NCBI RefSeq assembly: GCF_024298765.1
Contig: NZ_CP101210.1
Origin: Escherichia coli
GTDB lineage: Bacteria; Pseudomonadota; Gammaproteobacteria; Enterobacterales; Enterobacteriaceae
Length of the DNA stretch: 64,000 nucleotides
Reading direction: 5' to 3' (one strand)
Below the pieces are notes generated by a model. That model searched no databases. It saw nothing but the letters and a program-made list of their open reading frames with translations, and had not been told where the DNA came from. This document shows positions 16,082 to 27,885 of the stretch, piece by piece; the stretch's first letter is position 1; each line of letters opens with the position of its first letter. The translations under genes and the position numbers were made by a program.

Positions 16082-16540
16082 ATGGAAAATTATCTAATCG
16101 ACAATCTGGACCGTGGCATCCTGGAAGCATTAATGGGCAATGCGCGCACCGCTTACGCCGAACTGGCGAAACAATTTGGCGTCAGTCCGGGGACGATTCA
16201 CGTTCGAGTAGAGAAAATGAAGCAGGCGGGGATCATTACCGGGGCGCGTATTGATGTCAGCCCGAAGCAGCTCGGTTATGACGTAGGCTGCTTTATCGGC
16301 ATTATATTAAAGAGCGCCAAAGACTATCCTTCCGCGCTGGCGAAACTGGAAAGCCTTGATGAAGTCACTGAAGCCTATTACACCACCGGCCACTACAGCA
16401 TCTTTATAAAAGTGATGTGCCGTTCGATCGACGCTCTCCAGCATGTACTTATCAACAAGATCCAAACAATTGATGAAATTCAGTCCACCGAGACATTGAT
16501 CGTCCTGCAAAACCCGATCATGCGTACCATCAAGCCCTGA
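16082..16540 (+). CDS. asnC: Lrp/AsnC-family transcriptional regulator
   Basis: 152 aa with N-terminal HTH; divergent from asnA. Confidence 0.95.
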   Translation: MENYLIDNLDRGILEALMGNARTAYAELAKQFGVSPGTIHVRVEKMKQAGIITGARIDVSPKQLGYDVGCFIGIILKSAKDYPSALAKLESLDEVTEAYYTTGHYSIFIKVMCRSIDALQHVLINKIQTIDEIQSTETLIVLQNPIMRTIKP

Positions 16541-16563
16541 TCGGCTTTTTTAATCCCATACTT

Positions 16564-16572
16564 TTCCACAGG
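16564..16572 (+). promoter_or_regulatory. DnaA-box-like 9-mer (ttttccaca) in the mioC promoter region
   Basis: Near-consensus TTWTNCACA between asnC and mioC. Confidence 0.5.
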
Positions 16573-16629: not shown

Positions 16630-17073
16630 ATGGCAGATATCACTCTTATCAGCGGCAGCACCCTCGGCGGTGCCGAATATGTAGCAGAACACCTGGCTGA
16701 AAAGCTGGAAGAGGCGGGTTTTACCACCGAAACGCTGCACGGTCCGCTGTTGGAAGATTTATCTGCCTCTGGGATCTGGCTGGTTATCAGCTCAACCCAC
16801 GGTGCCGGAGATATTCCGGACAACCTTTCTCCTTTCTATGAAGCATTGCAGGAACAGAAGCCCGATCTTTCTGCGGTCCGCTTTGGCGCAATCGGTATTG
16901 GTAGTCGTGAATATGACACCTTTTGTGGGGCTATCGATAAACTCGAGGCAGAACTCAAAAATTCCGGTGCAAAACAGACAGGCGAAACACTGAAGATCAA
17001 CATTCTTGATCACGACATTCCGGAAGATCCGGCAGAAGAATGGCTGGGATCGTGGATTAATTTACTCAAATAA
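16630..17073 (+). CDS. mioC: FMN-binding flavodoxin-like protein
   Basis: 147 aa flavodoxin fold; transcribed toward oriC. Confidence 0.95.
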   Translation: MADITLISGSTLGGAEYVAEHLAEKLEEAGFTTETLHGPLLEDLSASGIWLVISSTHGAGDIPDNLSPFYEALQEQKPDLSAVRFGAIGIGSREYDTFCGAIDKLEAELKNSGAKQTGETLKINILDHDIPEDPAEEWLGSWINLLK

Positions 17074-17095
17074 GTATACAGATCGTGCGATCTAC

Positions 17096-17104
17096 TGTGG
17101 ATAA
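17096..17104. promoter_or_regulatory. DnaA box (R4-type, tgtggataa)
   Basis: Exact consensus 9-mer at the mioC-proximal edge of oriC. Confidence 0.9.
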
Positions 17105-17275
17105 CTCTGTCAGGAAGCTTGGATCAACCGGTAGTTATCCAAAGAACAACCGTTGTTCAGTTTTTGAGTTGTGTATAACCCCTCATTCTGATCCCAGCTT
17201 ATACGGTCCAGGATCACCGATCATTCACAGTTAATGATCCTTTCCAGGTTGTTGATCTTAAAAGCCGGATCCTTG

Positions 17276-17284
17276 TTATCCACA
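17276..17284. promoter_or_regulatory. DnaA box (R1-type, ttatccaca)
   Basis: Exact consensus 9-mer adjacent to the AT-rich 13-mer unwinding region. Confidence 0.9.
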
Positions 17285-17299
17285 GGGCAGTGCGATCCT

Positions 17300-17345
17300 A
17301 ATAAGAGATCACAATAGAACAGATCTCTAAATAAATAGATCTTCT
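17300..17345. repeat. AT-rich 13-mer DNA-unwinding element of oriC
   Basis: Three tandem GATC-containing AT-rich 13-mers in rc orientation (ctaataagagatc / aatagaacagatc / aaataaatagatc). Confidence 0.85.
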
Positions 17346-17451
17346 TTTTAATACCCAGGATCCCAGGTCTTTCTCAAGCCGACAAAGTTGAGTAGAATCC
17401 ACGGCCCGGGCTTCAATCCATTTTCATACCGCGTTATGCGAGGCAATCACC

Positions 17452-19341
17452 ATGTTTTATCCGGATCCTTTTGACGTCATCATCATTGGCGGGGGTCATG
17501 CAGGCACCGAGGCCGCGATGGCCGCGGCGCGTATGGGTCAACAGACTCTGCTTTTGACACACAATATCGACACTCTGGGGCAGATGAGCTGCAACCCGGC
17601 GATCGGCGGTATTGGGAAGGGACATCTGGTAAAAGAAGTGGATGCACTCGGCGGTCTGATGGCGAAAGCGATCGATCAGGCGGGTATCCAGTTTAGGATA
17701 CTAAACGCAAGCAAGGGACCGGCGGTTCGCGCTACCCGAGCTCAGGCGGATCGTGTGCTCTACCGTCAGGCGGTACGTACGGCGCTGGAGAACCAACCGA
17801 ACCTGATGATCTTCCAGCAGGCGGTTGAAGATCTTATTGTCGAAAACGATCGCGTGGTCGGTGCTGTTACCCAAATGGGACTGAAGTTCCGTGCCAAAGC
17901 CGTCGTGCTCACCGTTGGGACGTTCCTGGACGGTAAAATTCATATCGGTCTGGATAACTACAGCGGTGGCCGTGCTGGTGATCCGCCGTCCATTCCGCTT
18001 TCTCGCCGTTTGCGTGAACTGCCGCTGCGCGTTGGTCGTCTGAAAACCGGGACTCCGCCGCGTATTGATGCTCGAACCATAGACTTTAGCGTGCTGGCGC
18101 AACAGCATGGCGATAACCCAATGCCGGTATTCTCGTTTATGGGTAATGCGTCCCAGCATCCACAGCAGGTGCCGTGTTATATCACTCATACCAACGAGAA
18201 AACCCATGATGTGATCCGCAGTAACCTCGATCGTAGCCCAATGTACGCAGGGGTGATCGAAGGTGTCGGCCCACGCTACTGCCCGTCGATCGAAGACAAA
18301 GTCATGCGCTTCGCCGACAGAAATCAGCATCAGATCTTCCTTGAACCGGAAGGGCTGACCTCAAACGAAATTTATCCGAACGGTATCTCCACCAGCCTGC
18401 CGTTCGATGTGCAGATGCAAATCGTCCGCTCCATGCAGGGGATGGAAAACGCGAAGATCGTGCGTCCAGGTTATGCCATTGAGTATGACTTCTTCGATCC
18501 ACGCGACCTGAAACCGACGCTGGAGAGCAAGTTTATCCAGGGGCTGTTCTTTGCTGGTCAGATTAACGGCACTACCGGTTACGAAGAAGCCGCTGCGCAA
18601 GGTTTGCTGGCTGGTCTTAACGCTGCCCGTCTGTCTGCAGACAAAGAAGGTTGGGCTCCAGCGCGTTCTCAGGCGTATCTCGGCGTACTGGTTGATGACC
18701 TGTGCACTTTAGGAACCAAAGAACCGTATCGTATGTTTACCTCGCGCGCAGAATATCGTCTGATGCTGCGCGAAGATAATGCAGATCTGCGTTTGACTGA
18801 AATCGGTCGTGAACTGGGCCTGGTGGATGACGAACGTTGGGCGCGCTTTAACGAGAAACTTGAGAATATCGAGCGTGAGCGTCAGCGTCTGAAATCGACC
18901 TGGGTAACCCCGTCGGCGGAAGCTGCAGCCGAAGTGAATGCTCACCTGACTGCGCCGCTTTCCCGTGAAGCCAGTGGTGAAGATCTGCTACGTCGTCCTG
19001 AAATGACTTATGAAAAATTAACCACGCTGACACCGTTTGCCCCTGCGTTGACAGATGAACAGGCTGCGGAACAGGTTGAGATTCAGGTTAAATACGAAGG
19101 TTATATCGCGCGCCAGCAAGATGAGATCGAAAAGCAGCTGCGTAACGAGAATACCCTGCTACCAGCGACGCTGGATTACCGCCAGGTATCCGGTCTTTCT
19201 AACGAAGTGATCGCCAAACTTAACGATCACAAACCGGCCTCTATTGGCCAGGCTTCGCGTATTTCTGGCGTCACGCCTGCGGCTATCTCCATTCTGCTGG
19301 TGTGGCTGAAAAAACAGGGTATGCTGCGTCGTAGCGCATAA
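17452..19341 (+). CDS. mnmG: tRNA uridine-5-carboxymethylaminomethyl modification enzyme
   Basis: 629 aa with N-terminal FAD-binding motif ([12 protein letters not shown]); transcribed away from oriC. Confidence 0.95.
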
Positions 19342-27584: not shown

Positions 27585-27885
27585 ACGCGTATTGACCCGT
27601 CCTGAAAAGCGTTCACATAGATTCTGATGATATAAAACACCCCTGTTTTCCCGTTTATTCATTGATCGAAATAAGAGCAAAAACATCCACCTGACGCTTA
27701 AATGAAGGTACTGCCTTAATTTTCTGCAGACAAAAGGCGTGACGATGGTCGAAAATGGCGCTTTCGTCAGCGGGGATAATCCGTTATTGAACAATTTATC
27801 CTCTGTCCATTTCACGATGAAAAAAATGTAGTTTTTTCAAGGTGAAGCGGTTTAAATTCGTTCTCAAATTACAGTCAGGACGCGT

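What the first reader, a model, noticed from the sequence alone, without database searches (positions are those of the whole stretch)
17085..17361. Complete oriC with matching switch in gene orientation
All the hallmark oriC elements are present between mioC and mnmG: consensus DnaA boxes at both ends, three GATC-containing AT-rich 13-mers, and at least 12 GATC sites. Genes to the left (rbs, kup) are mostly on the minus strand and genes to the right (mnmG, atp, glm, lpf, pst, bgl) on the plus strand, so both sides are transcribed co-directionally with replication. The window is therefore centred on the replication origin and any GC-skew sign change should fall here.
Basis: partly seen in the sequence, partly recalled or inferred. 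Interest (0 to 1): 0.3.

Follow-up and report, generated by a model that had tools for sequence, protein, structure and literature searches.

The report
E. coli chromosomal replication origin oriC

Summary

- **Identity.** Window 17085-17363 lies between mioC and mnmG. It matches the chromosome of 5424 of 5426 complete E. coli genomes. It differs from K-12 MG1655 oriC at one base, window 17151, which lies in a spacer.
- **Elements.** All claimed elements are present: perfect DnaA boxes R4 (17096-17104) and R1 (17276-17284), and boxes R2, R3 and R5M. The low-affinity arrays are unchanged. The three GATC-led AT-rich 13-mers are at 17298-17341.
- **GATC.** There are 12 whole GATC sites in the stated interval, against 1.4 expected. 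Eleven lie in the minimal origin, as published.
- **GC skew.** Cumulative GC skew reaches its minimum at 17484. Mean skew is -0.045 to the left and +0.037 to the right.
- **Other species.** In 19 other gammaproteobacteria the boxes, 13-mers and 8 of the 11 GATC sites are conserved. Spacers vary, and there are almost no indels between R1 and R4.

- The origin sits at 27% of the window, not at its centre.
- Only 9 of 15 genes on the left are co-directional with replication, and asnC and mioC point into the origin.
- On the right, 28 of 28 genes are co-directional up to 49.6 kb, but 15 of the last 16 are head-on.
- Part of the local skew follows gene strand.

Novelty: already known. Interest: very low.

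The parts
16630..17073 (+). mioC coding sequence, the left-flanking gene, transcribed toward the origin
   Evidence: RefSeq annotation of a record that differs from the window at 7 bases in 64 kb. It corresponds to the K-12 mioC position.
17097..17341 (.). 245-bp minimal oriC (conventional positions 23-267, where position 1 is the G of GGATCC at window 17363). The 232-bp origin feature annotated in the K-12 record maps to 17110-17341 and leaves out R4.
   Evidence: Ungapped alignment to NC_000913.3 with one mismatch inside the origin. It holds 11 GATC sites, as published for the minimal origin (PMC5742627). The 23-267 numbering is from my memory of the classical literature.
17096..17104 (-). 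DnaA box R4, a perfect TTATCCACA high-affinity site at the right-hand edge of the DnaA-oligomerisation region
   Evidence: Identical to K-12.
17108..17149 (-). Right-half array of low-affinity DnaA sites: C1 17108-17116, I3 17119-17127, C2 17130-17138, C3 17141-17149. The old 'R3' box TTATCCAAA at 17135-17143 (+) overlaps C2 and C3.
   Evidence: Positions derived from published spacing rules: 2-4 bp between sites and 20 bp from R2 to C3 (PMC5742627); 2 bp, same orientation (PMC6158602). Applied to the sequence. All bases are identical to K-12. The site coordinates are inferred; no published table was available to me.
17150..17169 (.). R2-C3 spacer (the published Fis-consensus region). It holds the only difference from K-12, at 17151 (window C, K-12 T, G in four other strains). 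That base is the centre of the inverted repeat GAACAAC-N-GTTGTTC (17144-17158).
   Evidence: The Fis consensus between R2 and C3 is stated in PMC5742627.
17170..17178 (-). DnaA box R2 (TTATACACA)
17188..17240 (+). Left-half array of DnaA sites: I2 17188-17196, I1 17199-17207, tau2 17210-17218, R5M 17221-17229 (TCATTCACA), tau1 17232-17240
   Evidence: using the spacing rules of PMC5742627 (9 bp from I2 to R2; 2-4 bp between the others). Identical to K-12. The R5M sequence TCATTCACA appears in PMC6158602.
17245..17257 (-). IHF-binding-site candidate GATCAACAACCTG between R1 and R5M, with 2 mismatches to WATCAANNNNTTR
   Evidence: The consensus and the location between R1 and R5M come from PMC5742627. 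Identical to K-12.
17276..17284 (+). DnaA box R1, a perfect TTATCCACA high-affinity site next to the unwinding element
17298..17341 (-). Duplex-unwinding element: 13-mers R (17298-17310, GATCTCTTATTAG), M (17313-17325, GATCTGTTCTATT) and L (17329-17341, GATCTATTTATTT). The T-rich strand is the window's - strand.
   Evidence: Exact matches. It is the least stable 45-60-bp stretch of the mioC-mnmG intergenic region by nearest-neighbour free energy, and falls at the 99.6th percentile of the whole window.
17342..17356 (.). AT-rich cluster flanking 13-mer L, outside the minimal origin
   Evidence: Sequence. [quoted passage not shown]
17371..17398 (+). Sigma-70 promoter-like site (TTCTCA-16-TAGAAT) pointing away from the origin into mnmG
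   Evidence: Consensus scan, 9 of 12 matches. This is a pattern match only.
17452..19341 (+). mnmG (gidA) coding sequence, the right-flanking gene, transcribed away from the origin

Best explanation
Window 17085-17363 is the single chromosomal replication origin, oriC, of an E. coli strain closely related to the avian pathogenic isolate MS1679.

How it works is taken from experiments on the K-12 sequence, which is identical here apart from one spacer base:
1. DnaA sits on the high-affinity boxes R1, R2 and R4 through most of the cell cycle.
2. At initiation, ATP-DnaA fills two oppositely oriented arrays of weak sites. The left array is R5M, tau2, I1 and I2. The right array is C3, C2, I3 and C1.
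3. IHF bends the DNA between R1 and R5M.
4. The AT-rich 13-mers next to R1 melt. Their T-rich strand (the window's - strand) is held by the DnaA bound at R1 and R5M.
5. Two DnaB helicases are loaded and forks leave in both directions. One goes leftward through mioC, asnC and asnA toward rbs. The other goes rightward through mnmG and atp.
6. After firing, the 11 GATC sites are hemimethylated and bound by SeqA, which blocks immediate re-initiation.

Shown here: sequence identity, element positions, GATC enrichment, duplex instability of the 13-mer region, the skew switch, and conservation across strains and species. Inferred from the literature: every binding and unwinding step.
For: - **Match to E. 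coli.** The region matches 5424 of 5426 complete E. coli genomes, always on the chromosome and once per genome, between mioC and mnmG.
- **Match to K-12.** The K-12 record annotates an origin_of_replication feature that maps to 17110-17341. There is one substitution inside the origin, at 17151.
- **DnaA boxes.** R1 and R4 are perfect, and R2 and R3 are present. All low-affinity sites are unchanged from K-12.
- **13-mers.** L, M and R are exact and form the least stable duplex in the intergenic region.
- **GATC.** There are 12 GATC in 277 bp against 1.4 expected, and 11 in the minimal origin as published (PMC5742627).
- **GC skew.** The cumulative minimum is at 17484, with skew -0.045 left and +0.037 right, and 0 of 10000 permutations as extreme.
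- **Other species.** The comparison used 19 other gammaproteobacteria: Enterobacterales, Vibrio, Colwellia and Shewanella. Elements not used to select those sequences are 70-93% identical to the window (R5M 0.88, R2 0.91, 13-mer R 0.93) against 0.48 for spacers. Eight of the 11 GATC sites are kept in at least 13 of 19 species. Sixteen of the 19 have no indel between R1 and R4.
- **Other E. coli strains.** Across six other E. coli strains, none of the substitutions seen touches R1, R2, R4, R5M, a 13-mer or a GATC.
Against: Nothing argues against the identification. The limits are as follows.
- No functional assay can be run here.
- The skew minimum is shallow, and skew is partly driven by gene strand.
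- Coordinates of the weak DnaA sites are derived from published spacing rules, not from a published table I could read.
Conservation of R1, R4 and their approximate spacing is therefore partly built in.
Confidence: 0.98

Rival explanations
1. The motif cluster is a chance or non-origin DnaA-box cluster. It would be a DnaA-titrating or DnaA-regulating site of the datA or DARS kind, and replication would start elsewhere.
For: Perfect DnaA boxes also occur elsewhere in the window, at 57065 and 63783. One-mismatch boxes are about twice as frequent as in shuffles across the whole window, 31 against 13.4.
Against: Only this site combines two perfect boxes 171 bp apart with the three 13-mers, the highest GATC density in the window, the skew minimum and the mioC/mnmG flanks. 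It is base-for-base the annotated K-12 origin. As described in PMC5742627, datA and DARS lie elsewhere on the chromosome; none is described there with an unwinding element.
Confidence: 0.005
2. The change in GC-skew sign and gene orientation at 17 kb reflects only local operon arrangement (coding-strand composition) and is not a replication signal.
For: Skew follows gene strand. Left + strand genes have +0.025 against -0.084 for left - strand genes. Right - strand genes have -0.012 against +0.055 for right + strand genes. Skew turns slightly negative at 57-61 kb, where genes are head-on.
Against: After averaging the two gene strands on each side, a component of about -0.03 (left) and +0.02 (right) remains and changes sign at the origin. 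The origin's identity does not rest on skew.
Confidence: 0.015

Closest known systems
Escherichia coli K-12 MG1655 oriC (NC_000913.3 3925744..3925975 as annotated; the 245-bp minimal origin of the literature)
   Same: Same flanking genes, mioC and mnmG/gidA. All DnaA boxes, the IHF site, the three 13-mers, the AT cluster and all GATC sites are identical in sequence and spacing. There are no indels over the 1301 bp compared.
   Different: One substitution inside the origin. Window 17151 is C where K-12 (same orientation) has T. This is conventional position 213, A in K-12 and G here on the conventional top strand. It lies in the R2-C3 spacer, at the centre of a 7-bp inverted repeat. The site has three alleles among the seven E. 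coli sequences compared. The window is in the opposite orientation to the K-12 record.
Origins of other Enterobacterales and of Vibrio chromosome 1 (the enterobacterial-type oriC consensus)
   Same: The R1-to-R4 span is exactly 189 bp in 16 of the 19 species sampled. The 13-mers, R5M, R2, the GGATAACTAC core of R3/C2 and 8 of the 11 GATC sites are conserved.
   Different: Spacers are about 48% identical. C1 (0.39) and I3 (0.60) are poorly conserved outside Escherichia and its close relatives.

Membership tests
E. coli-type (enterobacterial) oriC | Lies in the mioC-mnmG (gidA) intergenic region of the chromosome, in single copy | tested here: met
   5424 of 5426 genomes match, all on chromosomes, with a median of one place per genome. 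Second places are records cut inside the origin.
E. coli-type (enterobacterial) oriC | High-affinity DnaA boxes R1, R2 and R4, with R1 and R4 in opposite orientation at the edges of the DnaA-binding region | tested here: met
   R1 17276-17284 (+), R2 17170-17178 (-), R4 17096-17104 (-). The R1-R4 gap of 171 bp is shared with 16 of 19 other species.
E. coli-type (enterobacterial) oriC | Two oppositely oriented arrays of low-affinity DnaA sites with about 2-bp spacing (R5M, tau2, I1, I2 and C3, C2, I3, C1) | tested here: met
   The sequence is identical to K-12 across both arrays. The 11-bp register is reproduced from the spacing rules in PMC5742627 and PMC6158602. DnaA occupancy itself cannot be tested here.
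E. coli-type (enterobacterial) oriC | Unwinding element of three AT-rich 13-mers (GATCTnTTnTTTT) next to R1 | tested here: met
   Exact L, M and R 13-mers at 17298-17341. This is the least stable duplex in the intergenic region.
E. coli-type (enterobacterial) oriC | Eleven Dam (GATC) sites in the minimal origin | tested here: met
   Eleven sites in 17097-17341. The published number is 11 (PMC5742627).
E. coli-type (enterobacterial) oriC | IHF site between R1 and R5M, and Fis consensus between R2 and C3 | tested here: inconclusive
   The IHF-like sequence at 17245-17257 is identical to K-12. The Fis region carries the one substitution (17151), and no Fis matrix was applied.
E. coli-type (enterobacterial) oriC | GC-skew sign change at the site | tested here: met
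   Cumulative minimum at 17484 and change point at 17 kb. Resolution is about +/-2 kb.
E. coli-type (enterobacterial) oriC | DnaA-dependent autonomous replication and bidirectional fork departure | not testable with these tools
   Needs a minichromosome assay or marker-frequency sequencing.

The most novel reading that the evidence does not exclude
Conventional oriC position 213 (window 17151) is the central base of the inverted repeat GAACAAC-N-GTTGTTC in the R2-C3 spacer, the Fis region. It carries three different bases among the seven E. coli sequences compared. The alleles might tune Fis binding or cruciform formation, and so shift initiation timing slightly between lineages. Nothing here supports a functional effect. 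The same column also varies freely between species.
Probability: 0.04. Interest if true: 0.15.

Novelty: already known. Interest (0 to 1): 0.04.

Why it matters
It matters only for bookkeeping. It fixes the replication origin of this window at 17.1-17.36 kb. Sequence to the left is therefore replicated leftward and sequence to the right rightward. That sets the leading and lagging strand for every other feature in the window, including the 14-kb block of head-on genes at the right end. It adds nothing to what is known about oriC.

Tried and rejected
- **Paper not held.** I tried to read the paper that defined the low-affinity site arrays (Rozgaja et al. 2011) by DOI and by a remembered PMC id. 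It is not held. Site coordinates were therefore derived from spacing rules in two held papers.
- **Literature search on site sequences.** A full-text search for the site sequences returned mostly unrelated primer lists. One hit, PMC11952115, did confirm the K-12 sequence AACAACAGTTGTTC.
- ** to be ignored.** It used a wrong offset and its long list of 'differences' is meaningless. One search is the correct comparison.
- **Allele frequency at 17151.** I tried to estimate it with 57-bp queries. 1278 genomes carry the window's exact 57-mer and 1144 carry K-12's. About 555 genomes gave no hit, because nearby variants break the 28-base seed, so these are haplotype counts and not allele frequencies.
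- **Cross-species scan.** It also returned about 100 hits from Pseudomonas, Burkholderia, Firmicutes and Actinobacteria with few GATC sites. I did not examine these.
- **Chance cluster and datA/DARS readings.** Both were considered and rejected (see rival explanations).

Full report
**What is there**

The stretch 17085-17361 lies in the 378-bp gap between mioC (16630-17073, +) and mnmG (17452-19341, +). A 601-bp query around it matches 5424 of 5426 complete E. coli genomes. A 279-bp query of the origin itself does the same. Matches are always on the chromosome, with a median of one place per genome. Records with partial matches are ones whose sequence starts or ends inside the origin.

The whole window differs at only 7 bases from the last 64,000 bases of the chromosome of the chicken isolate MS1679, NZ_CP097719.1. 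It therefore ends just upstream of dnaA.

**Alignment to K-12**

The K-12 MG1655 record annotates an origin_of_replication feature, noted oriC, at 3925744..3925975. An ungapped reverse-complement alignment of 1301 bp shows 10 substitutions and no indels. The K-12 feature maps to window 17110-17341. Only one substitution falls inside the origin, at window 17151 (C here, T in K-12 read in the same orientation). Published K-12 oligonucleotides confirm the K-12 base (PMC11952115).

I use the conventional numbering, in which position 1 is the G of GGATCC at window 17363 and window coordinate = 17364 minus position. On that scale the 245-bp minimal origin (positions 23-267, from my memory of the classical literature) is window 17097-17341.

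**Motifs against chance**

- Perfect TTATCCACA boxes occur four times in 64 kb. Two are R4 (17096-17104, -) and R1 (17276-17284, +). R2 (17170-17178) and R3 (17135-17143) are one-mismatch boxes.
- The three 13-mers are exact: R 17298-17310, M 17313-17325, L 17329-17341, all reading GATCT... on the - strand.
- Twelve GATC sites lie wholly inside the stated interval and a thirteenth is cut by its end. The window-wide density gives 1.4 expected (Poisson 3e-8). No other 277-bp stretch of the window has as many.
- Eleven GATC sites fall in the minimal origin, the published number (PMC5742627).
- I placed the weak DnaA sites using the published spacing rules: 2-4 bp between neighbouring weak sites, 9 bp from I2 to R2, and 20 bp from R2 to C3 (PMC5742627); 2 bp and same orientation (PMC6158602). 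All of them are identical to K-12.
- The 13-mer region is the least stable 45-60-bp duplex in the mioC-mnmG gap and sits at the 99.6th percentile of the window. AT-rich stretches next to the lpf island and elsewhere are less stable still.

**GC skew and gene orientation**

Cumulative G-C is lowest at 17484. That is 143 bp beyond the L 13-mer. Mean skew is -0.045 to the left and +0.037 to the right (1-kb bins: t-test P = 4e-5). A change-point statistic puts the switch at 17 kb, and 0 of 10000 permutations are as extreme. The minimum is shallow between 16 and 19.5 kb.

Skew also follows gene strand. Left + strand genes have +0.025 and left - strand genes -0.084. Right + strand genes have +0.055 and right - strand genes -0.012. 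After averaging the two strands, a replication component of about -0.03 (left) and +0.02 (right) remains.

Orientation by side:
- **Left.** Nine of 15 genes are co-directional with the leftward fork. yieP, mdtD, ravA, viaA, asnC and mioC are head-on.
- **Right, 17.4-49.6 kb.** All 28 genes are co-directional.
- **Right, 49.6-64 kb.** Fifteen of 16 genes are head-on.

The origin is at 27% of the window, not at its centre.

**Comparison with other strains and species**

I scanned one genome per species for two perfect boxes 165-178 bp apart. Nineteen of the loci have 12-18 GATC sites within 100 bp of the boxes. All 19 are Enterobacterales, Vibrio, Colwellia or Shewanella. Every other hit has 7 or fewer.

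Aligned to the window, 16 of the 19 have no indel between R1 and R4. Identity to the window is:

| Element | Identity |
|---|---|
| 13-mer R | 0.93 |
| R2 | 0.91 |
| R5M | 0.88 |
| C2 | 0.86 |
| I2 | 0.85 |
| tau2 | 0.82 |
| 13-mer L | 0.80 |
| Spacers | 0.48 |
| C1 | 0.39 |

Eight of the 11 GATC sites of the minimal origin are kept in at least 13 of 19 species. R1 and R4 were required by the search, so their conservation is built in.

I compared six other E. coli origins: K-12, ZLWT, Ec-U3, AVS0543, an ST131 strain and an O112ab:H8 strain. Substitutions fall at conventional positions 8, 76, 79, 212, 213 and 236 (spacers or the edge of the AT cluster), at 221 (C3/R3) and at 250 (C1). None falls in R1, R2, R4, R5M, a 13-mer or a GATC.

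Position 213 carries C, T or G on the window's + strand in different strains. It is the central base of the inverted repeat GAACAAC-N-GTTGTTC (17144-17158).

**How it works**

The mechanism is inferred from K-12 experiments summarised in PMC5742627 and PMC6158602. DnaA stays on R1, R2 and R4. ATP-DnaA then fills the two oppositely oriented weak-site arrays. IHF bends the DNA between R1 and R5M, and the 13-mers melt. The T-rich strand, which is the window's - strand, is captured by the DnaA bound at R1 and R5M. DnaB is loaded and forks leave in both directions. SeqA binds the hemimethylated GATC sites and blocks immediate re-initiation.

mioC transcription runs into the origin. A promoter-like site at 17371-17398 points away from it into mnmG.

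**Verdict**

The feature is the already known E. coli oriC, and interest is very low.

Noticed in passing
window 31248-36781: A 5.5-kb low-GC segment (GC 0.42-0.48) between glmS and pstS carries lpfA, lpfB and lpfC of the O113 type plus a fourth fimbrial gene. K-12 has only 313 bp between glmS and pstS. This is a known type of fimbrial island at this site.
   Followed up: partly
window 49541-49621: cbrC is missing. yieK ends at 49540 and cbrB starts at 49622, whereas K-12 has the 588-bp cbrC gene between them.
   Followed up: partly
window 63652-63930: This is the second-densest GATC cluster of the window, with 9 sites in 277 bp. A perfect DnaA box lies at 63783-63791 (-). The region is the rpmH-dnaA intergenic region at the very end of the window, consistent with the autoregulated, SeqA-sequestered dnaA promoter.
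   Followed up: partly
window 49600-64000: This is a 14-kb block in which 15 of 16 genes are head-on to the rightward fork. It includes highly expressed or essential genes (rpmH, rnpA, yidC, mnmE, tnaCAB). Local GC skew turns slightly negative at 57-61 kb.
   Followed up: partly
window 57065-57073: A perfect DnaA box TTATCCACA lies inside tnaB. About 0.5 perfect boxes are expected by chance in 64 kb, so it may be fortuitous.
   Followed up: no
window 16562-16570: A one-mismatch DnaA box TTTTCCACA lies in the asnC-mioC gap upstream of mioC, just after a terminator-like hairpin at 16532-16547. It fits the DnaA-regulated mioC promoter known from K-12 (from memory).
   Followed up: no
window 16995-17092: GATC enrichment extends left of the origin into the 3' end of mioC. 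There are 18 GATC sites in 16990-17365.
   Followed up: no
window 27645-27802 (-): An Rfam match to the enterobacterial sRNA STnc410 (188 bits, full length) lies between atpC and glmU, antisense to the direction of the flanking genes.
   Followed up: no
window 1-1277 (-): The window opens inside a 16S rRNA gene, which is co-directional with the leftward fork.
   Followed up: no
E. coli genome collection (not the window): Two of 5426 complete E. coli genomes gave no match to the origin query. I could not identify them. They could be misassemblies or engineered strains.
   Followed up: no
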